64,000 nucleotides of DNA from Candidatus Iainarchaeum sp. GTDB lineage: Archaea; Iainarchaeota; Iainarchaeia; Iainarchaeales; JAZDFD01. The number at the start of each line of letters is the position of its first letter. The first letter of the stretch is position 1. The position numbers and the translations under genes were made by a program. Under the pieces are notes generated by a model. The model made no database searches. It was not told the DNA's origin and worked only from the letters and a program-made list of their open reading frames with translations. Below, in pieces: positions 5,077-51,630 of the stretch. Location of the stretch: contig JAZDFD010000016.1 of NCBI GenBank assembly GCA_043808155.1, positions 7,604 through 71,603 on the forward strand, given 5' to 3'.

Positions 5077-5084
5077 GTGATTTT

Positions 5085-6657: not shown

Positions 6658-6672
6658 TAACTAGGTGATAAA

Positions 6673-9460: not shown

Positions 9461-9463
9461 AAA

Positions 9464-11037: not shown

Positions 11038-11055
11038 TTTCACACTTTTAAAAAG

Positions 11056-11706: not shown

Positions 11707-12509
11707 AACTAATTATTTTGAAATCGGGTGGCAGTGTCTGCACTGAAAAGGACAGAAATAAAGTAAAAGCAAAAATTCCAGTAATAAAACGAGTTGCGAG
11801 TGAAATTAAAGCTGCTCAAAGAAAACAAAAATTCAAACTTGTTTTAGTGCATGGTGCAGGACCTTTTGGACATCAATTTGTTCATAATTATGGAGTGAAA
11901 AACGGGGTAAAAAAAACAAACAAAAAACAAATTGAAGGTTTTGTCAGAACTCACAATTCAATGGAAGATTTGAATAAGATTTTTATGGATGTTTTTCGAA
12001 AAGAGGGTTTGCTTGGTTTCCCAATACAAACTAGTGCATGTGTTGTTCAAAAAAATAAAACAATTTCCAAATTTGACACAGCAATAATAAAAGAACTTCT
12101 GAAATTTGAAAATGTGATTCCCATCATGTACGGCGACATGGTAATCGATACTGCCAAAGGTGCGACAGTTGTTAGCGGAGATGCTTTAATTTCATTTCTT
12201 GCAAAAAAACTCAATGCAGATTTAGTTTTGCTTGGTGCTGATTTGGATGGCATATTCACTGCAGACCCCAAGAAAAACAAAAAAGCAAAGCTTATTGAAA
12301 AAATCAATTCAAAAAACTTTAAGGAAGTGCTGAGTTATGTGAAAGAAGCATCAACTATTGATGTAACCCGCGGTATGAAAGGAAAACTTCTTGAAATTAA
12401 AAAAATTGCAAATAAAAGAAAAGTAATTGTTTTCAATCTGAACAAAAAGAATTATTTGTATAATTTGCTCATTGGAAAAAAAGTCATTTCAACTGAAATA
12501 AAATTGTAG
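11703..12509 (+). CDS. ipk: Isopentenyl phosphate kinase
   Basis: Amino-acid-kinase fold motifs ILKSGGSV, LVLVHGAGPFGH and VVSGDA. ATGA overlap with the HAD gene. Confidence 0.85.
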   Translation: MKLIILKSGGSVCTEKDRNKVKAKIPVIKRVASEIKAAQRKQKFKLVLVHGAGPFGHQFVHNYGVKNGVKKTNKKQIEGFVRTHNSMEDLNKIFMDVFRKEGLLGFPIQTSACVVQKNKTISKFDTAIIKELLKFENVIPIMYGDMVIDTAKGATVVSGDALISFLAKKLNADLVLLGADLDGIFTADPKKNKKAKLIEKINSKNFKEVLSYVKEASTIDVTRGMKGKLLEIKKIANKRKVIVFNLNKKNYLYNLLIGKKVISTEIKL

Positions 12510-12516
12510 TGATATT

Positions 12517-17125: not shown

Positions 17126-18223
17126 TCACCTCTTTGTTGCATCCAAAAGCGTATCGCAAACAAATTCAATTTCTTCTTTTTTAAGTTCAGGGAACATTGG
17201 CAAAGAAACAATCTCACTGCATATTTTTTCTGCAACTGGAAATTTCTGTTTTGTGTCAATTAAATATTTTAATGCATTTTGCGTGTGTAATGGTTCTGGA
17301 TAATGAATTCCTGCGCCAATTCCCTGTTCTTTAAGTTTGTTTATTATTCTGTCTCTGTTTTTAACACGCACAACATACAAATGGAAAACAGATTTGCAAT
17401 TTGCGTCACTTGCAGGAACAACTACTTCTGAATCCTGAAGAAGTTCTGTGTATATTTTTGCATTTTTAATTCTCATGTCTGTCCATTCTTCAAGATGTTT
17501 AAGTTTGACATCTAATATTGCTGCTTGTAAAGCATCAAGTCTTGAGTTATATCCTATAAAATCAGACTGGAATTTATTTGATCTTCCGTGATTTCTGAGC
17601 ATTTTAGCTTTGTCATAAATTTCAGAATCATTTGTTACTATTGCACCACCGTCTCCAAAAGCACCTATATTTTTTCCCGGGAAGAAACTGAATGCACCTG
17701 CTGTGCTTATTGGAACTCGTTTTCCTTTGTATTCTGCGCCGTGTGACTGACAGCAGTCTTCAAGAACTAAAAGATTGTGTTTTTCAGCAATTTCATTTAT
17801 TACCTGCATTTCTGCAGGTCTGCCATATATATGCACAGGAATAATTGCCTTTGTTTTGGGCGTGATTTTTTTTTCAATTTGGTTTACATCAATATTAAAC
17901 GTTTCATCAGCATCAACAAGCACTGGTTTTGCCCCAAGCTGTACAACTGGCTCCACTGTTGCGAAAAAAGTATGTGTAGGTGCAAGTACTTCGTCACCTT
18001 TTGAAAGGCCCATGCATTCTAATGCGAGTTTTAATGCATCTGTTCCGTTTCCAACACCAACTGCATATTTTGCATTACAGAATTTTGCAAAGTTTTGTTC
18101 AAATTCTTCAACTGGCTTTCCAAGAATAAAAGATGTGTTTTCTATTATCTCGCTCATTGCAGAATCAATTTCTTCTTTTATGCTTTGATACTGTCTTTTC
18201 AGATCAACTAATGGGATTTTCAT
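17126..18223 (-). CDS. DegT/DnrJ/EryC1/StrS-family PLP aminotransferase, WbpE-like
   Basis: VDLKRQYQSIKEEIDSAM, the VGVGNGTDAL motif, and length (365 aa). Confidence 0.9.
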   Translation of the reverse strand: MKIPLVDLKRQYQSIKEEIDSAMSEIIENTSFILGKPVEEFEQNFAKFCNAKYAVGVGNGTDALKLALECMGLSKGDEVLAPTHTFFATVEPVVQLGAKPVLVDADETFNIDVNQIEKKITPKTKAIIPVHIYGRPAEMQVINEIAEKHNLLVLEDCCQSHGAEYKGKRVPISTAGAFSFFPGKNIGAFGDGGAIVTNDSEIYDKAKMLRNHGRSNKFQSDFIGYNSRLDALQAAILDVKLKHLEEWTDMRIKNAKIYTELLQDSEVVVPASDANCKSVFHLYVVRVKNRDRIINKLKEQGIGAGIHYPEPLHTQNALKYLIDTKQKFPVAEKICSEIVSLPMFPELKKEEIEFVCDTLLDATKR

Positions 18224-19269
18224 TTTCCACCACCCAATTTACTATGTTTTGGTTCAAATTTAAGAAAAATTTCTCTGCCTGATGCTGCAGATTCGTAAAG
18301 TGCATTTATCAGTTCAATTGATTTTCTTGCCTCATTGCCGTCAATAACTGCTTTTTTATCATGCAAAATGCAGTCTACAACATTTTCAAAGAACTTTGCG
18401 TGATTGTATGCAAAAACATTTGGATTTTGTTTAAAATCTTCGTCAATTTTATATGCTCCGTCTTCAAATTGCCAGATATCTAATTTATCTGCTGAAAACC
18501 CCCCGACAATAACTGTTCCGCCTTCGCCCAAGACGCTTATTGAACCCTCCAGATCTTTTGGACGTGTTGCAGTTGTGGCTTCTATTATTCCCAGTGCGCC
18601 ATTTGAAAATTTTATTATTGCAACTGCAGTGTCGTCTGCTTCGATGTCTGCTAAGCGCGTTGCAGTTTTGCACATAACACTTTCTATGTCACCCATTAAC
18701 CACTGAAGTAAATCAATGTGATGATTTGCCTGATTTGAAATAACTCCGCCATCCATTGCCCATGTCCCACGCCAGTCAACTGCATCATAATAATCCTGTT
18801 TTCTTGTCCATCTCATTCTTGCAGTCGCAATTACAAATTTTTTGAATTTACCCGAATCTATTGCTTCTTTAAGTTTTACAATTGGTTTGTTAAATCTGTT
18901 TTGTTTAACTTCAAAAAGTTTGACATTATTTTTTTTACAGGCCGCTATTACTTTGTCTGCATCTTTTAATGTCAGGGCCATTGGTTTTTCAACAACAACG
19001 TGTTTTCCTGCATTTGCAGAGTCTACTGCAGGTTCCCAGTGCAGTCCGCTTGGTGTAATTATACTTACTGCATCAATATCTGCTTTTTCCAGCATTTCTT
19101 TGTATGATGCAAACCATGGTACATTGTTCTCTTTTCCTGTTTTTTCTGCCAGTTCTTTTTTCAGGTCGCAAACTGCTGTGAGTTCCGCATTTTGAGTATT
19201 TTTTATGGCTGTAATGTGCTTTTTGCTGATTTTTCCGCAGCCAATCAATCCAAATCTTACTGTTTTCAT
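18220..19269 (-). CDS. Gfo/Idh/MocA-family NAD-dependent sugar oxidoreductase, WbpB-like
   Basis: N-terminal Rossmann motif VRFGLIGCGKISKKH. There is a 4-nt overlap with the aminotransferase gene. Confidence 0.85.
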   Translation of the reverse strand: MKTVRFGLIGCGKISKKHITAIKNTQNAELTAVCDLKKELAEKTGKENNVPWFASYKEMLEKADIDAVSIITPSGLHWEPAVDSANAGKHVVVEKPMALTLKDADKVIAACKKNNVKLFEVKQNRFNKPIVKLKEAIDSGKFKKFVIATARMRWTRKQDYYDAVDWRGTWAMDGGVISNQANHHIDLLQWLMGDIESVMCKTATRLADIEADDTAVAIIKFSNGALGIIEATTATRPKDLEGSISVLGEGGTVIVGGFSADKLDIWQFEDGAYKIDEDFKQNPNVFAYNHAKFFENVVDCILHDKKAVIDGNEARKSIELINALYESAASGREIFLKFEPKHSKLGGGK

Positions 19270-19311
19270 GCTAACAACTCAAATGTGCTATAAACCTCTT
19301 TTAAATGTTTT

Positions 19312-20538
19312 TTAGGCTTTAGAAGCTATTTTATAGGCTTCTAAAAAATCATCTGCTACTTTTGCATATGTGAATTTTTCAGTTATTGTTTTTCTGGCAT
19401 TCTGTTCTAATTTCTTTCTAAAATCGTCTTTTGTTAGTATTTTCTCAAGCGCTGCTGAAAGTTCCTTCACATCTCCTGTTTTGTAAATTATTCCATTTTC
19501 ATTGTTTTTTATGGCTTCAAATGCACCTGGAATATCTGAAGATATGACTGCTTTTCCTGAAGCCATTGCCTCAAGAACTATATTTGAAATCCCTAAATTT
19601 GGGGCTGAAGCTGACACAAAAACATCTGAGTCTGACATCATTTTGGAAAGTTTTTCATGTGAAACATTTCCTTCAAAATGTACTTTTTTTTCAAGGCCTA
19701 GTTTTTTTGCAAGTTTTTTCAGGTTTTTTTCTTCTGCACCATCACCTGCCAGTGAAAATTCTGTATCAATTCCTTTTTTCTGTAAAATACTCATTGCATT
19801 GATTATATCATCAAACTTTTTCCATTTCTCAAATCTTCCACCGCTTACAATTTGTTTAATCTGCTTTTGTTTTTTTGTAGTGGGTTTGAATTTTTCTGCG
19901 TCAACCCCGTAATGTGTTTTGAATATTTTTTTTTCATTTACTTTTTGTTTTATTAGTAATGATTTACCGTGTTTTGTTGTTGGAAGAATTAAATGGAAAA
20001 TTTTAAAGTAAAGTTTTTGAATTTTGAGTGCTAGTTTTATACTTGCAGAATTTAATTTCCAGCTTTCTTCAATTCCCTGCTCTGCTGAAAAACCTTTTAT
20101 TTTTGACCGTGTTGCAATTTCATATGCTAAGTCTCCGCAGTAACGTAAAAGAAATTTTTTTCTTAGTAATAATGGTCGGGATAATAAACATGTGACTGCA
20201 CCAAAAGAAAGATCCATTGCATGCACAATTTTTACTTTGTGTTTAAATGAAACATAACTGAGAGTTAGTGCTCCTAAAATGCCTGCGATTACCCATGTAA
20301 TAACATTGTTTTTATGAGGATTGAAAAAAGGTGCATTTGCTCTGTAAACATTCATTCCGTCTATTACCTCAAAAGATTTGCTTTTTGTAGTGTTTAATGT
20401 GACAACAGATATGTTGTGTCCGCGTTTAACAAGTTCCTTACCTGTGTAAAAAACTACTGAGGGTACGCCTCCAACTTCAGGAGGAAAACCACGTGTAACA
20501 AAACATATATTCAAAAAAGCACACCTTTCAAAACTCAA
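19312..20538 (-). CDS. Glycosyltransferase family 4 (GT-B)
   Basis: N-terminal FVTRGFPPEVGGVPSVV and C-terminal LEAMASGKAVISSDIPGAFEAI..NGIIY motifs. Confidence 0.8.
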   Translation of the reverse strand: MSFERCAFLNICFVTRGFPPEVGGVPSVVFYTGKELVKRGHNISVVTLNTTKSKSFEVIDGMNVYRANAPFFNPHKNNVITWVIAGILGALTLSYVSFKHKVKIVHAMDLSFGAVTCLLSRPLLLRKKFLLRYCGDLAYEIATRSKIKGFSAEQGIEESWKLNSASIKLALKIQKLYFKIFHLILPTTKHGKSLLIKQKVNEKKIFKTHYGVDAEKFKPTTKKQKQIKQIVSGGRFEKWKKFDDIINAMSILQKKGIDTEFSLAGDGAEEKNLKKLAKKLGLEKKVHFEGNVSHEKLSKMMSDSDVFVSASAPNLGISNIVLEAMASGKAVISSDIPGAFEAIKNNENGIIYKTGDVKELSAALEKILTKDDFRKKLEQNARKTITEKFTYAKVADDFLEAYKIASKA

Positions 20539-20649
20539 ACAAGCAATTTATTTGCCACTTAATATATATTATATATTCGGATTATTAAAAGAAGTTTGGT
20601 ACAATTCTCAAAATTGCTGCATTCTCTATAAGTGGTGCAAATCTCAAAA

Positions 20650-21390
20650 TCATTCAAATCGATATACTCTGAGCAGATTTTTTGCATTTCTCAGCATTAT
20701 TGGCAGAATAAGGTTGATTTTGTATTTCCATCTGAGATGAAGTTTTCTGTCTTTTTTTTCAATAAATTTTGCACCAATGCCTGAAAGCATTTCTTCAAGT
20801 TCTTTTTCTGTTAGGAATGATACAATTATATATTTGTGCACATAAAGGAAAGGAATACTTATGTTCCATTTGAAACAGATTTTTGTTACGTTGAAGATTA
20901 ATTTTGAAGTGAATTTTGAACCCATTACTTCCTCATAAAACATCAAATACGCTTTTGGTTTAGCAACGCGTTTAATTTCTTTTAGTGCTTTAACTGCAAC
21001 CTTCTTTGAGTCCTCTTGCGTGTCTCTTACAATGTGATGCAGAAGGTCTTTGAAAATCACGACATCAAAAGAATTATTTTCAAATGGCAGATTCAACACA
21101 TCGCCCTTCTGAAAATTAATCTCCGGGTTTTGTCTTTTTTTTGCTTCATTTATTAATTTTTCAGTTAAATCAATTCCGTAAAGTTTTGTTTTGGGATATC
21201 TTTTTTTTATACTTCCTAAAAGATAGCCTGAGCCACAGCCTACGTCAAGCACGCGTTCATTTCCTTTAAATGCAGTTTCTAAAAAGGGCAGAAACGGATT
21301 AAGTTTCTCTTCATTTAATTCTGCTTCACGTTTTGAATAATGATTACTTCTGTGTTCAAAATGCTTCTCAACTGAGTCCTTAACTTTCAA
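20650..21390 (-). CDS. Class I SAM-dependent methyltransferase
   Basis: Motif I VLDVGCGSGYLL and the post-I region YGIDLTEKLI. Confidence 0.8.
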   Translation of the reverse strand: MKVKDSVEKHFEHRSNHYSKREAELNEEKLNPFLPFLETAFKGNERVLDVGCGSGYLLGSIKKRYPKTKLYGIDLTEKLINEAKKRQNPEINFQKGDVLNLPFENNSFDVVIFKDLLHHIVRDTQEDSKKVAVKALKEIKRVAKPKAYLMFYEEVMGSKFTSKLIFNVTKICFKWNISIPFLYVHKYIIVSFLTEKELEEMLSGIGAKFIEKKDRKLHLRWKYKINLILPIMLRNAKNLLRVYRFE

Positions 21391-42786: not shown

Positions 42787-45654
42787 GTGGTGTTGATGAA
42801 AAAGGTATTGTTAGCCGTATTTGTACTGTTTTTACTTATTGCATTCACTTCATCCGCATTCGCAATCCAGCAGTTAATGGCACTTCACGGACAGGTTACT
42901 GATACTGGAAACCCAATAGTGAGCGGAAATTTAAGAGTTTACATTTATGATGATCCCACTGCAGGAAACCTAATTTATGATTCAGCTTCAGATTATGATG
43001 GGTCAATTGTAAATGGAATTTTTGATGTAATGCTTGGAGATAATACAACACTTGACCTTAACTACGGAACTCATTACTACATGGATTTAGCTGTTGATGG
43101 AACTGATTTAGATTTTGGTGCAAATGAAAGACAAAGATTTGAATCATCACACGGACTAGTACGAACAAATTCAATTATGGATGGTACAATTGCAAATGCA
43201 GACATTGCATCAGATGCTGCAATTGCCTGGTCAAAAGTTTCAAAAACTGGTTCAAATCTTTCTGACATTGGCTGGGATTCTGATTTTAATACTGCATTTG
43301 TTACAGAAGCAGATGGAAATAATTTATATGTTCTTCAAACAGATGGAAACACTTGGTATTACAATAGAACAGATGTGAATTCACTTTTTGTTAAACAAGC
43401 AGATGGAAATGTATGGTATCCGCGCTTAACAGAAAGTGAAACAATAACTGGAACTTGGGACTTTACAAACTCAACAACTTTTTCAGGTGGCTTTGGAAGT
43501 AATGGTGCAACAATCCAAGATGGAATTCTTTACGTACAATCAATTGTAATTGTAAATGATTTCAATGCTGCAACTGTTCAGGGAATTGACATTAACGGAC
43601 ATCACACTCCTTCAATTGACAACACATGGGATTTAGGTTCTGATACAAAAACTTGGAGAACAATTTACGGAACAGATGCAAACTTCACAACAATTTCAGT
43701 TCCTGCAGATGCAATCACTTGGACATTTGTAAATAAATCAGGGAGTAACTTAACTGACATCGAAACCCGAAACCATAATGATTTGCAGAGCATGGATGGC
43801 GGAACAACTGCAGAATATTATCACTTAACAAACACGCAACACTCTAACTTAACTGCATTAAATGGTGTATGGGTTACAATAAATTCCAATTCAGGGTCAA
43901 CTTCTGCAAACGCATTCCCTGACACATTAAACATTTATGGTTCTGACGACATTAATGTTTCAATTTCAGGAGACACAGTCACAATTGATTACAATGGTTC
44001 TGTTGCTGGTTCAATAACTGACACAAATTGGTCAACCTCATGGTCAGTATTTGATACAAATTTAAGTAATTATTACTGGAAACAATCTGATTTGAATGCA
44101 TATCTCCCACTAACTTATTACACTCAAACAGATGCAAACAATGTATTTGTAAAGATTTCAGATACTAACAACACAGGCAGATTAACCTACACAGTAATCG
44201 CAGACGCACCATGGACTACATCTGACACAACAGGAATCCTGTGGGCAGAACTGGATGCACTGACACCATGGGCAGATGGAAACGTAGCAGATGACATTAC
44301 ATTAACAAATCTGACACAAATAACAACAAGAGCATACAGCGATTTACAAGGAACGCCATACATTCCAACAGAAGCAGCAATAGATGCAAACGCACAAGCA
44401 CTAATTAACGCATCTGACACAAACGCAGCAACAGCATGTGATAATCAGGAAGTACTCCTAGGTGACGGAACATGCCTGAGCAGATTCACATTAGACACAA
44501 ACATCGCTGCAGGCGCAACAGGAATCCTGTGGGCAGAACTGGATGCACTGACACCATGGGCAGATGGAAACGTAGCAGATGACATTACATTAACAAACAT
44601 TTCACAAATCACAACAAAACCAATCTGGTCATTAGGCAATGTAGCAGATCTAAACCTCGTATTTGTAAAACAAAGTGATGGAAATACATGGTACATAAAA
44701 ACCGCAGACGCAAACACAGCAGGAAGATTAACATACACAGTAATCGCAGACGCACCATGGACTACATCTGACACAACAGGAATCCTGTGGGCAGAACTGG
44801 ATGCACTGACACCATGGGCAGATGGAAACGTAGCAGATGACATTACATTAACAAACGTAACCCAAATAACAAACAGAAACATATGGGACATGACAAATGT
44901 CAGCGATTTAGCAATTGACACAAACGCAGCAACAGCATGTGATAATCAGGAAGTATTGCTGGGTGACGGAACATGCCTGAGCAGATTTGTACTGGACACT
45001 AATATAGCGGGGGGTAGCTCAACCGATAGTAATGTTTGGACAGATAAATTCTTAGATGATACAAATAAATTAGTTGCAGATTGGAATGCAGGAAATGTGG
45101 AACTTGAGGTTAGAGATATAAGTGTAGGAACTAATATAACTGTAAGAGGAAACATTAGTGCAGTTGGAGATCTAGATGTTATAGGAGATGCAAATATTGG
45201 AACTTACTCTGCACCAAACCAACCAATGTTTAGAGCGTTTATGACTTCTGCAATGTCGGATCTAACTAATAATGTATGGACCGAAGTGAATATTGATGAT
45301 GACAGTGGTACTGTTGGATTTGACCCCAAAAATAAGTTTAACACTACAACTCATGCTTATACTCCTGTAGAAGAGGGATATTATTTAGTTTATGGTCAGG
45401 CTTATTGGAGCACTAATATTACAACTAACAAAAGATACAATTGTTCCATCTATAAAAATGGTGCATCTGTATCATTGGATAGTGTACATTCAAGTGATGC
45501 TGCTGCTTATCTTATGTGCAGAGTTACAGATTTAATTTATTTAGATAGTAACGATTACATTGAATTCTATGTTAGATCATTATCTGGAGACAATACTGCG
45601 GATATTGCAGGCGGAACAACAGCAACATATTTCTTTGCCCACAAGATTTCATAA
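42787..45654 (+). CDS. Fibre-like surface protein (955 aa) with C-terminal C1q/TNF-like head domain
   Basis: Signal peptide. A fibre-type N-terminal module follows (LHGQVTDTGNPIVSGNLRVYIYDDPTAGNLIYD...NGIFDVMLG...YYMDLAV), then internal repeats. The C-terminus FRAF...GYYLVYGQAYW...SIYKNG...DYIEFYV...TYFFAHKIS follows the C1q jelly-roll pattern. Confidence 0.7.
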   Translation: MVLMKKVLLAVFVLFLLIAFTSSAFAIQQLMALHGQVTDTGNPIVSGNLRVYIYDDPTAGNLIYDSASDYDGSIVNGIFDVMLGDNTTLDLNYGTHYYMDLAVDGTDLDFGANERQRFESSHGLVRTNSIMDGTIANADIASDAAIAWSKVSKTGSNLSDIGWDSDFNTAFVTEADGNNLYVLQTDGNTWYYNRTDVNSLFVKQADGNVWYPRLTESETITGTWDFTNSTTFSGGFGSNGATIQDGILYVQSIVIVNDFNAATVQGIDINGHHTPSIDNTWDLGSDTKTWRTIYGTDANFTTISVPADAITWTFVNKSGSNLTDIETRNHNDLQSMDGGTTAEYYHLTNTQHSNLTALNGVWVTINSNSGSTSANAFPDTLNIYGSDDINVSISGDTVTIDYNGSVAGSITDTNWSTSWSVFDTNLSNYYWKQSDLNAYLPLTYYTQTDANNVFVKISDTNNTGRLTYTVIADAPWTTSDTTGILWAELDALTPWADGNVADDITLTNLTQITTRAYSDLQGTPYIPTEAAIDANAQALINASDTNAATACDNQEVLLGDGTCLSRFTLDTNIAAGATGILWAELDALTPWADGNVADDITLTNISQITTKPIWSLGNVADLNLVFVKQSDGNTWYIKTADANTAGRLTYTVIADAPWTTSDTTGILWAELDALTPWADGNVADDITLTNVTQITNRNIWDMTNVSDLAIDTNAATACDNQEVLLGDGTCLSRFVLDTNIAGGSSTDSNVWTDKFLDDTNKLVADWNAGNVELEVRDISVGTNITVRGNISAVGDLDVIGDANIGTYSAPNQPMFRAFMTSAMSDLTNNVWTEVNIDDDSGTVGFDPKNKFNTTTHAYTPVEEGYYLVYGQAYWSTNITTNKRYNCSIYKNGASVSLDSVHSSDAAAYLMCRVTDLIYLDSNDYIEFYVRSLSGDNTADIAGGTTATYFFAHKIS
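44176..44855 (+). repeat. Near-identical intragenic repeat family A (three copies)
   Basis: Copies at 44176-44309 and 44722-44855 (134 bp, 2 mismatches at the 5' end) and a partial copy at 44518-44597 (80 bp). They encode (GRLTYTVIADAPWTTSDT)TGILWAELDALTPWADGNVADDITLTN. Confidence 0.9.
44415..44988 (+). repeat. Intragenic repeat family B (two copies, period 502 bp)
   Basis: gacacaaacgcagcaacagcatgtgataatcaggaagta...ggtgacggaacatgcctgagcagatt at 44415-44486 and 44917-44988. They encode DTNAATACDNQEVLLGDGTCLSRF. Confidence 0.9.
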
Positions 45655-45671: not shown

Positions 45672-46076
45672 ATGAGTGATGAATTAAAAGTTTCAAAAAA
45701 GAAAATAACATTAGCATTAGTGATTTTAGGAGCGTTAGTAATTGGTTTTGTTGCAGGAACATTTTTTGCACCAACTGCACCCGTTTCTGAAATTCAATCG
45801 CAAACATACAACTTAACAGAAGAAGATAAACAATTCCTTCGGAATTTAGCAAATACAGAAGTTTCAGCAATTATCTCCCAATCCGCTCAAACTGATTGGT
45901 GCACAGTAAATGGCGGAATATGGAATCAAAGCACAGACGAAGGTTTCTTTGAGATAAATAAAGAAATTTCAGATGAATTAAAATCACAAGGTGTTACAAT
46001 CACAGAAACCGAAGGCAAATATTTTGCACCAGTAAGTTTTGTAAAAAGAGACGGATGTATCATTCCAAAAAAGTGA
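45672..46076 (+). CDS. Small N-terminally anchored extracytoplasmic protein
   Basis: AGGTGAT SD; TM helix ITLALVILGALVIGFVAG; two Cys in the ectodomain. Confidence 0.5.
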   Translation: MSDELKVSKKKITLALVILGALVIGFVAGTFFAPTAPVSEIQSQTYNLTEEDKQFLRNLANTEVSAIISQSAQTDWCTVNGGIWNQSTDEGFFEINKEISDELKSQGVTITETEGKYFAPVSFVKRDGCIIPKK

Positions 46077-46080
46077 TTGA

Positions 46081-46857
46081 ATGAAAAAAATACTCCTGAT
46101 ATTTGGATTGCTTATTGTAATGAACTTTGCATTAACTGATGATTCAAATTCAGGAGGTACTAATTCACTCCCTGACTTTAATGTAGAGGATTACAACATC
46201 CCGGATTTCAATATCCCCGACTTAAATGTGTCCAATACAAACATCATTGACTTCAACATTCCAGATTTAAACATCATTAATCCAATCCTTGACTTAAATG
46301 CAATTGATTTCAATTCAATGTCTTTTGAATGCGAGTCACTTTCAATTTGTGATGAAAACACAATAATTTACTTCAATTGCTCTGATTTGAATATTTCAGA
46401 CTTAAACTGCATTTGGATAAATCAGTTAGATGATTTGAATTACACGCATTACCTTGCTCAAGATGCATGTATTGAAGACCAAGGTTATGAAATTGAAGAA
46501 ATTTCTGAAGATGGAAATGAAGAAGACACAAATGAATTGGAAGATGCAGCAACAACTGAAGACAAAACAGACAATTTAGAAAATGAAACATTAGACATTG
46601 AAGAAACAGCTGACAAAACTATAGATGATACGAACACATTAAACTGGCTATTAAACGGGATTTTAGAAATTATTGAAGAAACAATTGATACTTTTGTTGA
46701 CGAATTAATAACGCCCATTGTTGAAGCAATTTCAGGAGTTCCAGCACCAAAAGAATTCAAACTTGCAGAAAAAGACGTTCAGGTTGATGGAAAGTCTGCA
46801 AAATGCTTTGGAGTTGCATGTGATAGAATTCCAAAAAATTTAGGTGGTTCTGAATGA
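46081..46857 (+). CDS. Secreted acidic protein with DFNIPDLN-type short repeats
   Basis: Signal MKKILLIFGLLIVMNFAL, repeats DFNVEDYNIPDFNIPDLNVSNTNIIDFNIPDLNIINPILDLNAIDFN, and a D/E-rich centre. Confidence 0.5.
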   Translation: MKKILLIFGLLIVMNFALTDDSNSGGTNSLPDFNVEDYNIPDFNIPDLNVSNTNIIDFNIPDLNIINPILDLNAIDFNSMSFECESLSICDENTIIYFNCSDLNISDLNCIWINQLDDLNYTHYLAQDACIEDQGYEIEEISEDGNEEDTNELEDAATTEDKTDNLENETLDIEETADKTIDDTNTLNWLLNGILEIIEETIDTFVDELITPIVEAISGVPAPKEFKLAEKDVQVDGKSAKCFGVACDRIPKNLGGSE

Positions 46858-47171
46858 GGAAAGGACTAATAGTGTTGACATTGTTAGGTTTTCTTCTGTT
46901 TGGATGCTTACAAAATGCTCCTGAAAAATCAACTGATGAAAAAATATCAGAAGTCTTTAAAATAATGAGTGAAAAATATCCGAAGGATGAAATTCCGCAA
47001 ATCACATTAATTGAAAATGCAGATGAATTAAAATCACAACAGCAAGTAATTTACAAAAATGCAGAAAACGGAATGTTCATTGTGCAGTGGCCTGACTTGT
47101 TAGTAATTTATGATTATGAAAATCAAGAAGTTGTGCAAGAACTTGCAATAACAAATGTAAATTTAGGTTAG
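46854..47171 (+). CDS. Small lipobox-containing secreted protein
   Basis: MRKGLIVLTLLGFLLFGC signal. There is a 4-nt overlap with the upstream gene. Confidence 0.5.
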   Translation: MRKGLIVLTLLGFLLFGCLQNAPEKSTDEKISEVFKIMSEKYPKDEIPQITLIENADELKSQQQVIYKNAENGMFIVQWPDLLVIYDYENQEVVQELAITNVNLG

Positions 47172-47190: not shown

Positions 47191-49320
47191 ATGATTTTTG
47201 AGTTGAGTTTAATGAGAAAATTTTTTTTAGTGTGTGTATTATTGCTGTTTGCATCTAATTGTTTAGCTTACACTGGTTCTGGTGGATCAATTGACCTGAA
47301 CTTTGGACATGAATCTGACATTGGTTATTATGATGCTAATGGTGGAAATATTGACACTAATTTTATTGCAGGAGATGCACCAACAGGTATTTGGGTGGAT
47401 GAAAATATTACTGCACGAGTGGGTGTTTATTTCGGTGCAAATGCTGCACCAACGGTAACAATAACTGCACCTGATGCAAATTATAGCACCACTAACACCA
47501 CTGTAACAATGACTTATGTTGGAACTGACAGTGACAGTTCAATTGCAAAATATTGGGTGAAATTAGATTCTTCTGACTGGGTTAGCAATGGAACTAATTT
47601 GAGTTATGATTTCATTGCATTAATAGTGGGTGATCACACACTCTATGTAAAAGCAACTGACACTACCGATATCAATTCCTCTGAAGCAAGCGTAGATATA
47701 ACAATCACTGAAGAACTCTGTGGCAATGGAACTTGCGATACAGGAGAAGACAGCACTTCATGCCCTGCTGATTGTGACGCTGGTGATGGAGGCGGCGGAG
47801 GCGGCGGAGGCGGCGGCGGCGGAGGAATCCCAAACCTCACTTTAAATGTCACAGGAGTTTGTGCAGGCTACCCAATAACTGCACTTGTGCTTGACAGAAA
47901 ACAACTGCCAGTTGAAGGTGCAGAAGTAATTTTAAGAATAAACATTGGTGAACTAATAACAAAACTCACTGATGAAGAAGGAAAAGCATATTTCACATTA
48001 GATTCCGGAACATACACGATTTGGGCTAAAAACGGATCTCAAACTACGCCCCCACAAAATCTAACAATTATTGATTGTGAAAGCGGTGCTAAGCCTACAA
48101 CTTTTGCAGTTCGACCTGAAAATATTAATGTTAGATTAAGACAGGGCGAAAGAAAAAGTGATTTTATTTATGTAAAAAATATAAGTGATGATACTCTTGA
48201 AATGACAATTGATTTATCTGATTTGCAAGGGTTTGTTCGTTTCATTGGCGGATTAAGTGAATACGATTTTCAAATTGATGTAAATCAGGAAAAAATATTC
48301 GAATTAGAATTTAATATTTCCCAGGAAACAACACCAGGAAACTATGTAAAACAAATTATAATATCTAATGGAACAACTATCCAAGTAATTCCTGTTGCAA
48401 TGAATATAAGTTCAGGCGGGGCATTATTTGATGTCTCAGTAGAGATTCCAGGAAAATACAAAACAATTTCTGCAGGTGAAGAACTTCTGGTGCAAGTTGA
48501 ATTGTACAATTTAGGAAAAACAGGAAGAATAGATGCATTAATTGATTATGAATTAAAAGACATTTTTGGAAACACGCATTTGATTTCTCAGGAGATGCTT
48601 GCTGTTGAAACTAAGATGGCATTCACAAAATTTTTAATAATTCCATTTGATTCTGCACCAGGTGACTATTTCATTGTAATCACAGTTTCATATGATGATG
48701 AGTTAGCAGTTGCAAGTGATAGTTTTTCAGTTACTGAGCCAATAGACGAAGAATTTGACATAATGCCTACTGTAACATTTGTTGGTTTAGCCATCGGAGT
48801 ATTTATGATCTTGCTCTTCTTTTGGAGAAAAAGAACAAGCATCATAGACTTTATTTCTGAAAACATCAAAAAATTAAAAACAATAAAACACAGAAAATCA
48901 ATTGAGAAAAAAATTGAGAAAAAAGCAATTATAAAATCCATGTCTGCAAAACCACCAGTTGCAGAACCCATGCCAGAAACAAAACCAAAAGAAATTAATC
49001 TGGAAAACATTTCAGAAAATCTGAGCATAGTTCATGATGCATATACTCACAACTTAATAACCCATGAAAACTATCTAAAAGATATCAATAACATAATCTC
49101 TGATTTGGAAAGAGTAATAATGTTAAACTTCATGGAACAGGTAGACTTAAAGAAAACAAAATACGAATCTGAACATCCAGAGTATGAATTACAACTCATG
49201 AAGCTTCTCCAAATGCAAAGAAGTCTTGTTGCAATTAGAGATGCATATGATTTACATCTAATAACTCTTGATTCATTTGAACCACACATAGCTGAGCTTA
49301 TTGAGGAATTAAGCAGTTAA
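47191..49320 (+). CDS. Surface protein with Cys-knot-like CGNGTCD motif, poly-Gly linker, CARDB-like beta-sandwich repeats, TM anchor and cytoplasmic tail
   Basis: Signal; CGNGTCDTGEDSTSCPADC; a 13-Gly run; ISAGEELLVQVELYNLGKTGRIDALIDYELKD (CARDB-like); TM helix TFVGLAIGVFMILLFFW. Confidence 0.6.
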   Translation: MIFELSLMRKFFLVCVLLLFASNCLAYTGSGGSIDLNFGHESDIGYYDANGGNIDTNFIAGDAPTGIWVDENITARVGVYFGANAAPTVTITAPDANYSTTNTTVTMTYVGTDSDSSIAKYWVKLDSSDWVSNGTNLSYDFIALIVGDHTLYVKATDTTDINSSEASVDITITEELCGNGTCDTGEDSTSCPADCDAGDGGGGGGGGGGGGGIPNLTLNVTGVCAGYPITALVLDRKQLPVEGAEVILRINIGELITKLTDEEGKAYFTLDSGTYTIWAKNGSQTTPPQNLTIIDCESGAKPTTFAVRPENINVRLRQGERKSDFIYVKNISDDTLEMTIDLSDLQGFVRFIGGLSEYDFQIDVNQEKIFELEFNISQETTPGNYVKQIIISNGTTIQVIPVAMNISSGGALFDVSVEIPGKYKTISAGEELLVQVELYNLGKTGRIDALIDYELKDIFGNTHLISQEMLAVETKMAFTKFLIIPFDSAPGDYFIVITVSYDDELAVASDSFSVTEPIDEEFDIMPTVTFVGLAIGVFMILLFFWRKRTSIIDFISENIKKLKTIKHRKSIEKKIEKKAIIKSMSAKPPVAEPMPETKPKEINLENISENLSIVHDAYTHNLITHENYLKDINNIISDLERVIMLNFMEQVDLKKTKYESEHPEYELQLMKLLQMQRSLVAIRDAYDLHLITLDSFEPHIAELIEELSS
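47788..47826 (+). repeat. GGA/GGC trinucleotide tract encoding 13 consecutive Gly
   Basis: ggaggcggcggaggcggcggaggcggcggcggcggagga read directly. It is a G+C island in an AT-rich gene. Confidence 0.9.
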
Positions 49321-49369: not shown

Positions 49370-50011
49370 TCAATATTTCAATTTAAAATTAACAACTGAC
49401 GCTACCAGCAGCAATAATCCGAAAATTAAGAAATAAAAATTTCCTAATCCCGTATCTTCAAAGTAATCTAATTGATAACTCATTACATTGGATTCTTTAT
49501 TAAAAGCAAGATTGTAGGCGCCTATGGGTGCATTGATTGTGGTCGTGATTATTTTGTTATATCCTGCAGCGAAATCCGTGTAAGTAAAAACCAAACTTTC
49601 CGCAGTTTCAGCAGACAAAGTCACTTTCTGTCCGACTGGTGCAACTGCCACTCCCCAAAGACTGTCTCCGTTGTTAACTGCAACTCCCTTAACAGTATAA
49701 GATGCGATTATCTCATTATTGAATTCGTCAACATCCACATCCAAATCTTCAATTTGAATTGGTTGATTTTCCGGTTTAAAAATTCTCGCATAAGTATTTA
49801 GGTTGGGGTACTGTTGCTTAAAAAGATTAAATGCGCTTGTAGTGAACGAAATTTGTTCATTAACTCTAGCGTCACCGTTTGACAAAATATTTATAGTGGA
49901 TTTTTCATTCATTTCAAGCGAAACAGGATTTTCAGTTTCCAAAGCAAAAACACTGCTGGATAATAAAATCAAACTAACTGAAAGCAAAAGTGCTCTGTTC
50001 ATTGTCATCAC
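49370..50011 (-). CDS. Secreted protein with C-terminal TM anchor
   Basis: Signal MNRALLLSVSLILLSSSVFA and C-terminal FYFLIFGLLLLVASVV. Confidence 0.5.
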   Translation of the reverse strand: MMTMNRALLLSVSLILLSSSVFALETENPVSLEMNEKSTINILSNGDARVNEQISFTTSAFNLFKQQYPNLNTYARIFKPENQPIQIEDLDVDVDEFNNEIIASYTVKGVAVNNGDSLWGVAVAPVGQKVTLSAETAESLVFTYTDFAAGYNKIITTTINAPIGAYNLAFNKESNVMSYQLDYFEDTGLGNFYFLIFGLLLLVASVVNFKLKY

Positions 50012-51630
50012 GCTCCCACCACAAATGTTACAGCAATATCTTCCAACTCATTCATTGCAGTTTGTGTATTTGGATTCAATGTATCATACAGAAATGCAAA
50101 TCCATAATTCCCTGCTTCAAAATATTTACCCACACCTTTACCTGTTTCTCCAGTAAAAGCCTGAAAGTTATAAGTTACGACAACTCCGTTATAATAATTG
50201 GAAATATTTTCCTGACTGACCGATGTTGATTGCACATAACCAACAGTTGATAAAGCTGCTTCAACATAAGTACGCATGTTTTCTTTTGTTTCATTTGGTT
50301 CCCAACTAACTAAAAACTCACTTTTAGTGTCAGGAGACTGAACAAGAACTTCCCCCTCAACAGCGTGGTGAATTACCCAGTCAGAAGGATAAGTAATAGC
50401 CCATTCAGGATTAGCATTTTGGTAAACCCGCATATTTTCTCCAACAATATCCGAAGCACCATCTGTATTAGATTGCCCTCCTGAAGTTGAATGTGTCTGA
50501 GTAAGTGTGTCTTTTACATTCCATTGCTCAAAAACATTTTCCGGTAATGTCTCCAATTGCGGAGGTGTGATTCCTGCTATTTGCAGAGACTTAATGTCCA
50601 CTAAAATATTTGGACCCTGCATTGCATTATTGAATACTTGTTCCCCAACTTCAAGTGCTGTCTGAAAACTGGCGTGCTCATTTAACTGAGTAGATTCAAT
50701 TATAACGATGTTTCCGCTTTCAGGAAGTCTTACTACAGGAAATGCGTGGCCTGGCATTAAAATAACATATGCGTCAAGACCCTGCGAAAGTGCAAGAGAT
50801 GCAAAAAACAATGCAGTGTCAATGCACGTGCCTGATTTTTCTTTTAATACGTCCCTCGGATATTTAATAAATTGAGAGAATTTACCAGTCCAAAAAGCTT
50901 CGGGTTCGGTTTTATAAGCAATGTCATTTGCAACCGATAATGTCCACATTCCTTCAAGACTTCTAATCGCATCTTCATCAGACAATCTCGCTGCTGTACC
51001 ACCTGCAAGAGCATTACCCGCGTCAGCAAATTTCATTATTACTGGGTCTGAAGGAGTTGCCCATGCAGCCAGCAAGGGATAGTTACTTGCAACATCATAA
51101 AATGAACCAGTACTTTCTTCCGGAGGAATGCTTGAGAAAATAAAATCATGAACTCCTAAAATGGAAACTGATTTACTGCCGGTTAATTCTTTTTCTTCAC
51201 CATCTTTGTTTTTAGAATATGTAAATTTTACATTAATCTTTGAAGGAGTCGGACTTGTTAAATTTGTTAAGTCACTGGACAAAATAGGATAATACAAATC
51301 CACAACCGTGCTACCGGGTAATAACATAGGATAAGTCTGTGTTTCACTCCAATCAGAATAGCCTGCTACATTATACTGCGGTTTCACGTTGTACAATGGC
51401 CTGTCACCAGTATTTGAAATAATTGTTTTCGCAACCCACTGACCAAGCTTTTCATTGCTATAAATTTTATATGTGGCAGAAACAATATGTTCAGGAGTCA
51501 ACATTTCATAAGAAAGTTTTCCTTCCCCCATAGGTTCGGAAGGTAAAAATGCAAAAATCAAAAAACAGAAAAGCGCAAGCAAAACCAAAAAACCAGACAC
51601 AATATTTCTAAGGTCAATTTTATGAATCAA
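50008..51630 (-). CDS. N-terminally anchored protein with transglutaminase-like (Cys protease-fold) core
   Basis: TM helix IVSGFLVLLALFCFLIFAF. The segment KSGTCIDTALFFASLALSQGLDAYVILMPGHAFPVV matches the Cys...His core of transglutaminase-like domains. Confidence 0.6.
   Translation of the reverse strand: MIHKIDLRNIVSGFLVLLALFCFLIFAFLPSEPMGEGKLSYEMLTPEHIVSATYKIYSNEKLGQWVAKTIISNTGDRPLYNVKPQYNVAGYSDWSETQTYPMLLPGSTVVDLYYPILSSDLTNLTSPTPSKINVKFTYSKNKDGEEKELTGSKSVSILGVHDFIFSSIPPEESTGSFYDVASNYPLLAAWATPSDPVIMKFADAGNALAGGTAARLSDEDAIRSLEGMWTLSVANDIAYKTEPEAFWTGKFSQFIKYPRDVLKEKSGTCIDTALFFASLALSQGLDAYVILMPGHAFPVVRLPESGNIVIIESTQLNEHASFQTALEVGEQVFNNAMQGPNILVDIKSLQIAGITPPQLETLPENVFEQWNVKDTLTQTHSTSGGQSNTDGASDIVGENMRVYQNANPEWAITYPSDWVIHHAVEGEVLVQSPDTKSEFLVSWEPNETKENMRTYVEAALSTVGYVQSTSVSQENISNYYNGVVVTYNFQAFTGETGKGVGKYFEAGNYGFAFLYDTLNPNTQTAMNELEDIAVTFVVGA

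What the first reader, a model, noticed from the sequence alone, without database searches (positions are those of the whole stretch)
42787..45654. Fibre-like archaeal surface protein with tail-fibre-style N-terminal module and a C-terminal C1q/TNF-like head
After a signal peptide the protein begins with a module (LHGQVTDTGNPIVSGNLRVYIYDDPTAGNLIYD...NGIFDVMLGDN...YYMDLAVDG...ERQRFES). Its pattern resembles the N-terminal domain of bacterial tail-fibre-like or collagen-like surface proteins. Next comes a long T/N/D-rich repetitive shaft with very many N-x-S/T sequons (NLT, NVS, NGS, NWS, NIT ...). The last ~140 residues (PMFRAF...VGFDPKNKF...HAYTPVEEGYYLVYGQAYW...CSIYKNGASV...NDYIEFYV...TATYFFAHKIS) follow the C1q/TNF jelly-roll consensus, which is a trimeric receptor-binding head. 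No phage structural, terminase or integrase genes are nearby, so this looks like a cellular fibre rather than a prophage tail. For a small, possibly episymbiotic archaeon, such a fibre is a strong candidate for host or substrate recognition. I am not aware of a characterised archaeal C1q-headed fibre.
Basis: partly seen in the sequence, partly recalled or inferred. Interest (0 to 1): 0.72.

Follow-up and report, generated by a model that had tools for sequence, protein, structure and literature searches.

The report
Phage-like surface fibre in a DPANN archaeon
A tiny uncultured archaeon encodes a secreted, phage-tail-fibre-like protein tipped with a C1q/TNF-type binding head, most likely a cell-surface fibre for gripping other cells or surfaces, a device so far characterised only in bacteria and viruses.

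Summary
The ORF at 42787..45654 (+) encodes 955 aa; NCBI starts it at ATG 42796, giving 952 aa, a hypothetical protein of a Candidatus Diapherotrites/Iainarchaeum MAG.

Three independent tests confirm that the last ~143 residues are a C1q/TNF jelly roll:
- 38 of 103 homologues hit Pfam C1q.
- A family profile hits human C1q (E 8.4e-6).
- An AlphaFold model (pLDDT >90 in the domain) matches C1QL3 (TM 0.83), and phage C1q-type fibre tips more strongly (E 7e-13).

The conserved N-terminal ~345 aa occur only in Iainarchaeal genomes and always follow a Sec signal peptide. This module contains shaft motifs homologous to a solved cyanophage fibre (8i4m, E 3.9e-7). Its first ~100 residues form a generic beta-sandwich with no specific match. 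Family members carry different C-termini (tip swapping); only this one has the C1q head.

All loci are chromosomal, with no viral genes. A type-I membrane protein gene is a conserved neighbour and a candidate anchor.

Verdict: an archaeal counterpart of a known kind of fibre. Adhesin function, trimer state and anchoring are inferred, not shown.

The parts
42787..42864 (+). Sec-type signal peptide (residues 1-26, ...SSAFA|IQQ). The real start is probably the ATG at 42796.
   Evidence: Hydrophobic segment 1-33. Sequence shown. NCBI's model starts at residue 4. Equivalent signal peptides occur in all full-length homologues.
42865..43164 (+). N-terminal beta-sandwich domain (residues 27-126), the most conserved part of the family. 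Proposed cell-proximal docking domain.
   Evidence: AF2 pLDDT ~65-86 for model residues 1-100, all-beta. Only weak generic Ig/filamin/CBM20-like matches, none at E<=1e-3. Invariant columns cluster here.
43165..43821 (+). Conserved proximal shaft (residues 127-345). Contains the motifs IxNADIxxxAAIxWSKVSKTGSNLSD, D-G-N-x-W-Y repeats, ...DLGSDTKTWRTIYG... and HNDLQxxxGGxxxEYYHLT.
   Evidence: Family profile A4 hits the fibre protein gp28 of cyanophage P-SCSP1u (8i4m_e, E 3.9e-7) and weakly the T5 L-shaped tail fibre. Weak PHROG tail-fibre, tail-spike and minor-tail hits. The monomer model has low confidence here.
43822..45222 (+). Variable, repetitive distal shaft and neck (residues 346-812). 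Three repeats have an identical 26-aa core GILWAELDALTPWADGNVADDITLTN (44233-44310, 44521-44598, 44779-44856). Two Cys-pair repeats DTNAATACDNQEVLLGDGTCLSRF lie at 44416-44487 and 44917-44988. A short helix precedes the head.
   Evidence: 82 nt 100% identical in three copies; 122 nt identical in two. One search gives Cys positions 551/563 and 718/730. One search shows a helix at model residues 2-15. Not shared with family homologues beyond ~residue 500.
45223..45651 (+). C-terminal C1q/TNF-like jelly-roll head (residues 813-955). Proposed trimeric ligand-binding tip.
   Evidence: 2,837 representatives at E<=1e-3. 38 of 103 homologues hit Pfam C1q and 29 hit BclA_C. Profile versus PDB: human C1q 8.4e-6, collagen X NC1 2.7e-4. 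AF2 pLDDT >90. Foldseek: C1QL3 E 3.4e-8, TM 0.83. Phage C1q-domain proteins E 7e-13.
45672..47171 (+). Three small co-directional genes (134 aa with an N-terminal TM, 258 aa secreted, 105 aa lipobox-like) between the fibre and partner genes.
   Evidence: ORFs. Hydrophobic N-termini. Homologues of the 134-aa and 258-aa proteins sit directly upstream of the partner homologue in L001.
47191..49320 (+). Conserved neighbour: a 709-aa type-I membrane protein. It has a signal peptide, a conserved ~190-aa N-domain with an Ig-like fold, a poly-Gly linker, Ig-like domains, a TM at residues 522-547 and a cytoplasmic tail. Candidate membrane anchor for the fibre.
   Evidence: Weak Pfam Big_1/Y_Y_Y/Big_7 hits. 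TM. Homologues lie immediately downstream of fibre genes in L003/L004/L008 and L015, and ~9 kb downstream in L001. Analogous type-I membrane proteins lie next to the fibre genes in L006 and L010.

Best explanation
The gene encodes a secreted fibre built like a phage tail fibre and used by the cell itself, a Diapherotrites/Iainarchaeum (DPANN) archaeon.

Shown:
- The parts, in order, are a Sec signal peptide, a lineage-specific beta-sandwich, a shaft with phage-fibre sequence motifs, a recently duplicated repeat region and a C-terminal C1q/TNF jelly-roll head.
- The head belongs to a subfamily found mainly on phage fibre tips.
- The N-terminal ~345 aa are conserved in a small Iainarchaeal family, while the C-terminal tips differ between members.
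- The gene is chromosomal and usually sits beside a type-I membrane protein gene.

Inferred:
- The C1q head trimerises and nucleates a homotrimeric fibre.
- After export, the conserved N-terminal domain docks on the cell envelope, most plausibly on the conserved ectodomain of the neighbouring membrane protein.
- The head projects outward and binds a surface ligand, probably a glycan, on another cell or on a substrate.
- Exchanging tips and changing repeat number alter specificity and reach.

Functionally this would be an archaeal counterpart of the Bdellovibrio 'mosaic adhesive trimer' (MAT) fibres.
For: Head:
- C1q/BclA_C/TNF Pfam hits in its homologues.
- Profile hits to human C1q, collagen X NC1, C1QL and Eiger.
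- A confident model matching C1QL3, EDA, TWEAK and phage knobs, and phage C1q-domain proteins at E 7e-13.

Viral affinity of the head subfamily:
- PHROG tail-fibre families.
- 193 IMG/VR contigs encode relatives.
- Phage baseplate context around P0012.
- Only 13 of 139 head-bearing representatives have a hydrophobic N-terminus.

Phage-fibre-like shaft: 8i4m fibre gp28, E 3.9e-7.

Cellular, exported protein:
- A signal peptide in every full-length family member.
- Nine loci, all in Iainarchaeum or unclassified archaeal MAGs.
- The N-terminal module was not found in IMG/VR.
- Housekeeping neighbours here and at the homologous loci.

Tip swapping: homologues align only over residues ~1-300/500, and none of their ORFs carries the head.

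Conserved membrane-protein neighbour.

Recent repeat expansion.

MAT precedent: a signal peptide, a conserved ~130-aa beta-rich N-domain, swappable tips including TNF/C1q-like ones, and glycan binding (PMC10769870).
Against: - Nothing here shows trimerisation. Only monomer models could be made, and the shaft models poorly.
- Nothing shows retention on the cell. There is no C-terminal TM, PGF-CTERM or lipobox.
- The fibre-partner interaction rests only on gene adjacency. In one locus the partner is ~9 kb away, and in L006 the neighbour is only analogous, not detectably homologous.
- Only one family member carries the C1q head.
- The N-terminal beta-sandwich has no specific structural relative. 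Its homology to the MAT N-domain could not be tested.
- The lifestyle of Iainarchaeota (symbiotic or free-living) is unresolved, so 'host recognition' is speculative.
- All data come from MAGs.
Confidence: 0.6

Rival explanations
1. It is a virion, tailocin or eCIS fibre (receptor-binding protein) of an integrated archaeal virus or phage-tail-like particle, not a cellular surface structure.
For: The head subfamily is predominantly viral. The shaft motifs match a cyanophage fibre. Conserved N-terminus with variable C-terminus is the classic tail-fibre layout. Spike proteins of enveloped archaeal viruses can carry signal peptides (my own knowledge, not tested here).
Against: A Sec signal peptide is present in all full-length family members, which does not fit cytoplasmically assembled tails. 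No capsid, terminase, portal, baseplate, sheath or integrase hit appears among the ORFs scanned across the 64-kb window or in the homologous loci. The N-terminal module was not found in IMG/VR. The homologous loci whose flanks were examined sit among housekeeping genes, with AMMECR1 recurring upstream.
Confidence: 0.07
2. It is a secreted fibre or lectin that is not tethered to the producing cell, or that binds abiotic or polymeric substrates or matrix (biofilm, polysaccharide capture) and does not mediate cell-cell or host recognition.
For: A signal peptide is present but no recognisable covalent or membrane anchor. C1q/TNF domains commonly act as soluble trimeric ligands or lectins (PDB hits). 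Iainarchaeota are not demonstrated symbionts.
Against: The strongly conserved N-terminal domain with variable tips is what a docking module predicts. A soluble lectin gives no obvious reason for it. The conserved adjacency to a type-I membrane protein suggests a cell-bound partner.
Confidence: 0.2
3. It is an ordinary S-layer or envelope structural protein whose C-terminal beta-sandwich merely resembles C1q.
For: It is a large, secreted, T/N/D-rich archaeal protein with many potential N-glycosylation sites, in a cluster of other secreted and membrane proteins.
Against: No S-layer family hit in Pfam or NCBIfam. No C-terminal anchor. The head is a true C1q/TNF family member by sequence profile as well as fold. 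Homologues have unrelated C-termini, which is not expected of a lattice-forming protein. The shaft is homologous to a phage fibre.
Confidence: 0.05

Closest known systems
Bdellovibrio bacteriovorus MAT (mosaic adhesive trimer) fibres, e.g. Bd2439 and Bd2734 (PMC10769870)
   Same: A cellular, signal-peptide-bearing protein of ~1,000 aa. A conserved beta-rich N-terminal domain directly follows the signal peptide. The shaft is long and phage-tail-fibre-like. C-terminal tips are swappable and include TNF/C1q-like domains. The proposed role is recognition of other cells' surface glycans.
   Different: The organism is an archaeon (DPANN), not a bacterium. Homology of the N-terminal domain to the MAT N-domain was not testable here. 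No S74 chaperone was seen in this family; one homologue ends in a Hint domain instead. A conserved type-I membrane protein neighbour is seen here and is not reported for MATs. Only 1-2 copies per genome were seen, against 21 in B. bacteriovorus.
Phage tail fibres and receptor-binding proteins with C1q-like tips (uncultured Caudovirales 'C1q domain containing protein', phi812 central spike knob 9eul, cyanophage A-1(L) short fibre 8ke9, P-SCSP1u fibre gp28 8i4m)
   Same: The head has the same fold and is closest in sequence to this subfamily. Shaft motifs are shared with 8i4m. The layout is a conserved N-terminus with a variable C-terminus.
   Different: It has a Sec signal peptide, lies in a chromosomal housekeeping context with no virion genes, and its N-terminal module was not found in viral contigs.
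eCIS tail fibres with C1q domains (eBAP2 class; PMC12923769)
   Same: A prokaryotic fibre ending in a C1q domain used for target-cell binding.
   Different: No eCIS, baseplate or sheath genes are in the window. The N-terminus is a secreted beta-sandwich, with no evidence that it is an eCIS baseplate-attachment (eBAP) domain; this was not compared directly.
Bacillus BclA exosporium filament (collagen-like stalk plus C1q-like BclA_C head)
   Same: A cell- or spore-surface hair with a trimeric C1q-like C-terminal head. 29 of 103 head homologues hit Pfam BclA_C.
   Different: There is no collagen GXY stalk and no Collagen Pfam hit (sequence). The anchoring differs, and the organism is an archaeon.
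Metazoan C1q/TNF family (C1q, C1QL1-3, collagen VIII/X NC1, adiponectin, EDA, TWEAK)
   Same: The same jelly-roll fold (TM 0.8-0.84 normalised to the target) and detectable profile similarity. The domain is C-terminal after a fibrous stalk.
   Different: Only ~14-16% identity. The stalk is not collagen. The nearest relatives are viral, not metazoan.

Membership tests
C1q/TNF superfamily (Pfam C1q PF00386 / BclA_C PF18573 / TNF PF00229) | Compact ~130-150-aa jelly-roll beta-sandwich fold | tested here: met
   AF2 model with pLDDT >90 across the domain and all-beta strands at model residues 62-201. Foldseek prob 1.00 to C1QL3, C1QL1, C1q, EDA, TWEAK and 4-1BBL, with target-normalised TM up to 0.84.
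C1q/TNF superfamily (Pfam C1q PF00386 / BclA_C PF18573 / TNF PF00229) | Statistically significant sequence relationship to family members | tested here: met
   The query alone gives no Pfam hit. However, 38 of 103 direct homologues hit PF00386 (best 2.8e-17) and 29 hit PF18573. The family profile hits human C1q at 8.4e-6 and collagen X NC1 at 2.7e-4.
C1q/TNF superfamily (Pfam C1q PF00386 / BclA_C PF18573 / TNF PF00229) | Assembly into a homotrimer (or heterotrimer) about a three-fold axis | not testable with these tools
   Only monomer prediction is available. Trimerisation is inferred from the family.
C1q/TNF superfamily (Pfam C1q PF00386 / BclA_C PF18573 / TNF PF00229) | Placed at the C-terminal end of a fibrous stalk | tested here: met
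   The domain ends at the last residue of the protein. It lies within 10 aa of the C-terminus in 118 of 152 head-bearing representatives.
MAT-type cell-surface mosaic adhesive trimer fibres (Bdellovibrio) | Signal peptide followed directly by a conserved beta-rich N-terminal domain of ~100-130 aa | tested here: met
   Signal peptides and a conserved beta-sandwich occur in all family members. This shows the same layout only.
MAT-type cell-surface mosaic adhesive trimer fibres (Bdellovibrio) | Sequence or structure homology of the N-terminal domain to the MAT N-domain | not testable with these tools
   No MAT N-domain sequence or structure was available. The PDB holds only MAT C-terminal fragments, and the fold search gave no significant hit.
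MAT-type cell-surface mosaic adhesive trimer fibres (Bdellovibrio) | Intertwined trimeric beta-helix/prism shaft related to phage fibres | tested here: inconclusive
   Shaft motifs are homologous to the trimeric cyanophage fibre 8i4m (E 3.9e-7). The monomer model of the shaft has pLDDT <50, and no multimer test was possible.
MAT-type cell-surface mosaic adhesive trimer fibres (Bdellovibrio) | Family members share N-termini but carry exchanged C-terminal tip domains | tested here: met
   Homologues align only over residues ~1-300/500. Their C-termini differ (Hint, Phage_depo_C-like, others). No other member has the C1q head.
MAT-type cell-surface mosaic adhesive trimer fibres (Bdellovibrio) | Located on the producer's cell surface and binds target-cell glycans | not testable with these tools
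   This needs microscopy and binding assays.
Phage/virus tail fibre (virion receptor-binding protein) | Encoded in a viral genome or provirus beside tail, baseplate or capsid genes | tested here: not met
   No viral hallmark families among the ORFs scanned in the window or in the homologous loci examined. The N-terminal module was not found in IMG/VR.
Phage/virus tail fibre (virion receptor-binding protein) | Cytoplasmic assembly, hence no secretion signal | tested here: not met
   A Sec-type signal peptide occurs here and in all full-length homologues. Only 13 of 139 head-bearing representatives have one.
Phage/virus tail fibre (virion receptor-binding protein) | Fibre shaft motifs and a C-terminal receptor-binding domain shared with phage fibres | tested here: met
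   shaft; head.
BclA-type collagen-like surface filament | Collagen G-X-Y triple-helix stalk | tested here: not met
   No Collagen Pfam hit and no G-X-Y runs in the sequence.
Archaeal S-layer protein | S-layer family domains and a C-terminal membrane or lipid anchor | tested here: not met
   No Pfam or NCBIfam S-layer hit. The only hydrophobic segment is the N-terminal signal.

The most novel reading that the evidence does not exclude
Iainarchaeal (DPANN) cells carry domesticated phage tail fibres as a dedicated two-part recognition organelle. A type-I membrane protein serves as the socket. A secreted trimeric fibre plugs into it through a lineage-specific N-terminal domain. The fibre's tip, here a phage-derived C1q/TNF head, is exchanged by recombination with the viral gene pool to retarget the cell to new hosts or partners. 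This would be the first molecular host-recognition device proposed for this phylum, and an archaeal parallel to Bdellovibrio MAT fibres.
Probability: 0.35. Interest if true: 0.75.

Novelty: new variant of a known kind. Interest (0 to 1): 0.55.

Why it matters
How DPANN archaea recognise and attach to partner cells is largely unknown. For Diapherotrites/Iainarchaeota it is not even settled whether they have hosts.

This work provides a concrete, testable candidate:
- a secreted phage-like fibre with a confidently modelled C1q/TNF binding head;
- a lineage-specific docking module;
- a conserved candidate membrane anchor.

The head can be expressed and screened on glycan arrays or against co-occurring cells. 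The fibre could also be looked for by cryo-ET in enrichments.

It also extends two known patterns to Archaea. One is the recruitment of tail-fibre modules for cellular adhesion, known from Bdellovibrio MAT fibres. The other is virus-to-cell exchange of C1q-type receptor-binding tips.

The limits are clear. The parts are all of known kinds, only one member carries this head, and every functional step beyond domain identity is inferred from MAG sequence.

Tried and rejected
- Direct family assignment of the whole protein, the N-terminal part and the head against Pfam, NCBIfam and PDB sequences gave nothing. Assignment needed homologue-based profiles.
- The exact-sequence contig look-up for the protein found no record.
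- Searching the 5.8-billion-protein index with the head alone gave only 3 hits because of the word filter.
- Taxonomic placement of head homologues by cluster names gave almost no names.
- The GTDB genome scan for the head failed twice. Alignment A2 was too diverse to give a search pattern. With A5, 95 pattern matches were found but none was confirmed. How widely the head occurs in cellular genomes therefore remains unknown.
- The fold search of the N-terminal model gave no hit at E<=1e-3, only generic Ig-like noise.
- A diversity-generating retroelement was considered because of the near-identical internal DNA repeats. It was rejected: the three copies share an 82-nt core that is 100% identical, with differences confined to the flanking sequence, which points to recent duplication or gene conversion and not to DGR-type mutagenesis. 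I did not test the flanking differences for adenine-specific substitution, and no reverse transcriptase appeared among the scanned ORFs.
- Sequon enrichment was tested and found not significant.
- A provirus, eCIS or tailocin context was rejected after scanning 46 window ORFs and the genes called at the homologous loci examined.
- Collagen-like (BclA) and S-layer readings were rejected.
- The bacterial promoter/terminator scan was uninformative for an archaeon.


Full report
**1. The observation**

The window has an ORF at 42787..45654 on the + strand encoding 955 aa. It is 100% identical to an NCBI entry, 'MAG: hypothetical protein V1672_02925 [Candidatus Diapherotrites archaeon]', 952 aa. 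NCBI's start is the ATG at 42796, three codons inside the GTG reported by the ORF lister.

The N-terminus is a typical Sec signal: MKK, a hydrophobic core, then AFA|IQQ, with hydrophobic residues 1-33. The mature protein is T/D/N-rich (13.0, 10.4 and 9.1%).

It is genuinely repetitive:
- Three ~60-aa repeats contain an 82-nt core that is 100% identical in all three copies (44228, 44516, 44774).
- A 122-nt stretch is identical in two copies.
- There are two 24-aa repeats, each with a Cys pair.

One detail does not hold. There are 23 N-x-S/T sequons, against 17.0 +/- 3.6 in composition-preserving shuffles, and 129 of 2000 shuffles reach 23. Composition therefore explains most of the sequon richness.

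**2. The head**

The protein, and its last 146 aa alone, give no Pfam, NCBIfam or PDB-sequence hit. An exhaustive phmmer search of the last 203 aa against 1.84 billion representatives found 2,837 relatives at E<=1e-3 and 273 at E<=1e-10. In 118 of 152 retrieved proteins the domain lies within 10 aa of the C-terminus.

Four lines then identify the fold:
- Of 103 short relatives, 38 hit Pfam C1q (best 2.8e-17), 29 hit BclA_C and 3 hit TNF.
- A 40-sequence profile (A2) hits human C1q (8.4e-6), collagen X NC1 (2.7e-4), C1QL1-3 and Eiger among PDB sequences.
- An AlphaFold2 model of the last 203 aa has mean pLDDT 87.6, above 90 through the beta-domain.
- Foldseek matches C1QL3 (E 3.4e-8, target TM 0.83), C1q, EDA-A1, TWEAK and 4-1BBL. 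It also matches the phage phi812 central spike knob and the cyanophage A-1(L) short-fibre binding domain.

The C1q/TNF assignment is therefore confirmed. Trimerisation could not be tested because only monomer prediction was available.

**3. Where the head comes from**

Matches are stronger against predicted viral structures. C1q-domain proteins of uncultured Caudovirales reach E 7e-13. The list also includes virion proteins of the haloarchaeal tailed viruses HSTV-1 and HRTV-4 and of Halorubrum virus CGphi46.

Other evidence points the same way:
- Head relatives hit PHROG families annotated as tail fibre, virion structural protein or minor tail protein.
- Relatives occur in Pelagibacter phage HTVC026P, Methylophilales phage MEP401 and a Caudoviricetes record annotated 'c1q globular head like domain containing protein'.
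- 193 IMG/VR contigs encode relatives.
- The best-scoring relative (P0012, with 8 tandem copies) sits among myovirus baseplate genes. Another relative (P0036) sits in a phage-like gene array.
- Only 13 of 139 head-bearing representatives have a hydrophobic N-terminus.

The head is thus a member of a predominantly viral fibre-tip subfamily.

**4. The N-terminal module and the family**

Full-length homologues are few, and where named they are all 'Candidatus Diapherotrites', 'archaeon' or similar. A scan of GTDB species representatives found nine loci. All are in Iainarchaeum or unclassified archaeal MAGs, and one genome holds two copies. No relative was found in IMG/VR.

Homologues align with the query only over residues ~1-300 to ~1-500, at 37-56% identity over these aligned spans. 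Their C-termini are unrelated: a Hint domain in P0009, a weak Phage_depo_C beta-sandwich in P0007, and others. None of the ORFs in their loci carries the head. All full-length members begin with a Sec-type signal peptide.

An AlphaFold2 model of mature residues 1-319 (13-sequence alignment) is confident only for the first ~100 residues, which form an all-beta sandwich with pLDDT ~65-86. The rest is below 50, as would be expected for a chain that folds only as an intertwined oligomer. The sandwich has no significant PDB match, only weak generic filamin/Ig/CBM20-like hits.

The family profile does hit the fibre protein gp28 of cyanophage P-SCSP1u (8i4m, E 3.9e-7). The match runs through the 'IxNADIxxSAAIxxSK' motif and the '...P..nNtyDLGs.s.RWr.vY' motif. 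It also hits the phage T5 L-shaped tail fibre weakly. PHROG hits of family members are weak but all tail-related.

The 'tail-fibre style' therefore lies in the proximal shaft, not in the first domain.

**5. Context**

The window is ordinary archaeal chromosome:
- a complete-looking archaeal mevalonate pathway cluster at 441-13560;
- sugar-modification and glycosyltransferase genes at 17-21 kb;
- [NiFe]-hydrogenase subunits, an EamA transporter and AMMECR1;
- FttA/aCPSF1, a proteasome subunit and FKBP26.

No tRNA or Rfam hit was found, and no viral hallmark family appeared in any ORF scanned. Homologue loci are likewise chromosomal, with enolase, DHDPS, RNase HII, a T2SSE-family ATPase and large Laminin_G_3 surface proteins. 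AMMECR1 recurs a few kb upstream in three of them.

The fibre gene heads a co-directional, tightly packed set of genes. These are 134-aa, 258-aa and 105-aa small membrane or secreted proteins, then a 709-aa type-I membrane protein. That protein has a signal peptide, a conserved N-domain, a poly-Gly linker, Ig-like domains, a TM at residues 522-547 and a cytoplasmic tail.

Homologues of this 709-aa protein (36-39% identity over the first ~160-200 aa) lie in three places:
- immediately downstream of the fibre gene in L003/L004/L008;
- immediately downstream of the fibre gene in L015;
- ~9 kb downstream in L001, preceded by homologues of the 134-aa and 258-aa genes.

In L006 and L010 the adjacent gene is a type-I membrane protein of the same design, with a low-complexity G/S linker, a TM and a basic tail. 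Every locus with readable flanks therefore pairs the fibre with such a membrane protein.

**6. Mechanism**

Shown:
- export signal;
- domain order;
- C1q/TNF head;
- phage-fibre shaft motifs;
- lineage-restricted conserved N-module with variable tips;
- recent internal duplications;
- chromosomal location;
- conserved membrane-protein neighbour.

Inferred:
- The head trimerises, as C1q/TNF domains do, and registers a homotrimeric fibre.
- The conserved N-domain holds the fibre on the envelope, most plausibly on the conserved ectodomain of the neighbouring type-I membrane protein.
- The head binds a ligand, likely a glycan, on another cell or surface.
- Tip exchange and repeat-number change tune specificity and reach.

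The Bdellovibrio MAT fibres are the best characterised analogue. They have a signal peptide, a conserved ~130-aa beta-rich N-domain thought to bind a surface element, trimeric shafts and swappable tips. Those tips include TNF-like Bd2439, which binds GlcNAc, and Bd2734, whose closest structural matches include a C1Q-like protein (PMC10769870). C1q domains on bacterial eCIS tail fibres are also documented (PMC12923769).

**7. Rivals**

- A virion, tailocin or eCIS fibre is disfavoured by the signal peptide, the context and the failure to find the N-module in viral contigs.
- An untethered secreted lectin or matrix fibre cannot be excluded, because no anchor is demonstrable.
- An S-layer protein is disfavoured by the lack of S-layer domains or an anchor and by the variable tips.
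- A DGR explanation for the internal repeats is rejected.

**8. Novelty and score**

Full-text searches found no paper linking C1q with DPANN, and none describing a cellular archaeal C1q-headed fibre. This covers only the held library.

All building blocks are of known kinds, and the architecture has a bacterial precedent. What is new is an archaeal, DPANN-specific family with its own N-terminal docking module and a conserved membrane-protein partner, one member of which has captured a phage-type C1q tip.

I rate it a new variant of a known kind, interest 0.55. Confidence is ~0.85 for the structural description and ~0.5 for the adhesin-on-anchor mechanism, 0.6 overall.

Noticed in passing
window 441-13560 (+): A co-directional cluster that looks like a complete archaeal-type mevalonate pathway: HMG-CoA reductase, HMG-CoA synthase, thiolase, GHMP kinase, UbiX-like flavoprotein, UbiD-like decarboxylase, AcnX, amino-acid-kinase-family (isopentenyl phosphate kinase-like) and an FMN-dependent dehydrogenase (IDI2-like). 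A malic enzyme and a HAD hydrolase are interspersed.
   Followed up: partly
window 2826-3914 (+): A 362-aa ORF between the HMG-CoA synthase and thiolase genes whose only Pfam hit is a LAGLIDADG_3 homing-endonuclease-like domain (E 5e-6). This is an odd occupant of that position.
   Followed up: no
window 38450-42655 (+): A 1,401-aa protein just upstream of the fibre gene. It has an N-terminal hydrophobic segment ending in a lipobox-like LVSGC, a C-terminal TM plus basic tail, and a low-complexity S/E/L/K-rich body. It has no Pfam, NCBIfam or PHROG hit and no homologue next to the other fibre genes. It lies in the lowest-GC stretch of the window (0.31-0.32).
   Followed up: partly
window 50008-51630 (-): A 540-aa protein with an N-terminal hydrophobic segment. 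It shows partial similarity to the NCBIfam anti-phage protein ProA model (E 1.7e-15, 55.6 bits, far below the 1500-bit cut-off).
   Followed up: no
window 47191-49320 (+), around 47740-47790: The 709-aa partner protein contains a run of 13 consecutive glycines. The run reads as poly-proline in a spurious antisense ORF (47643-47852). Homologues in L001, L010 and L015 also have G-rich linkers at the same place.
   Followed up: partly
window 44228-44309, 44516-44597, 44774-44855: An 82-nt segment is 100% identical in three copies inside the fibre gene, synonymous sites included. This implies very recent duplication or ongoing gene conversion. It is also a possible source of assembly collapse or expansion in a MAG.
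   Followed up: yes
L006 1554-5141 (protein P0009): A family member (1,195 aa) ends in a Hint/intein-like autoprocessing domain instead of a binding head. This may be an analogue of the self-cleaving S74 chaperone of phage and MAT fibres.
   Followed up: no
L097 10001-16435 (protein P0012); also P0013: Phage tail-fibre proteins with 8-10 tandem copies of the same C1q-like domain in a single chain of 1,750-2,150 aa. P0012 lies next to Baseplate_J, Sheath_initiator and Mu Gp48 genes. Tandem C1q arrays in one chain are unusual.
   Followed up: partly
proteins P0010, P0167-P0172, P0183: The ~35-aa motif 'IxNADIxxxAAIxWSKxSKTGSxLxDL' from the fibre's proximal shaft recurs as tandem repeats in many unrelated metagenomic proteins and in cyanophage fibre gp28 (8i4m). 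It appears to be a widespread, unnamed fibre repeat.
   Followed up: partly
BFVD entries R9QT70 (HSTV-1), R4TKF4 (HRTV-4), R9TQ80 (CGphi46): Predicted structures of virion or uncharacterised proteins of haloarchaeal tailed viruses match the C1q-like head (E ~4e-11 to 4e-9). This suggests C1q-type receptor-binding tips already circulate among archaeal viruses.
   Followed up: no
window 17126-21390 (-): A DegT-type aminotransferase, a GFO/IDH/MocA oxidoreductase, a GT1/GT4 glycosyltransferase and a methyltransferase lie together. This is a surface-glycan biosynthesis cluster that could supply glycans for the many secreted proteins nearby.
   Followed up: no
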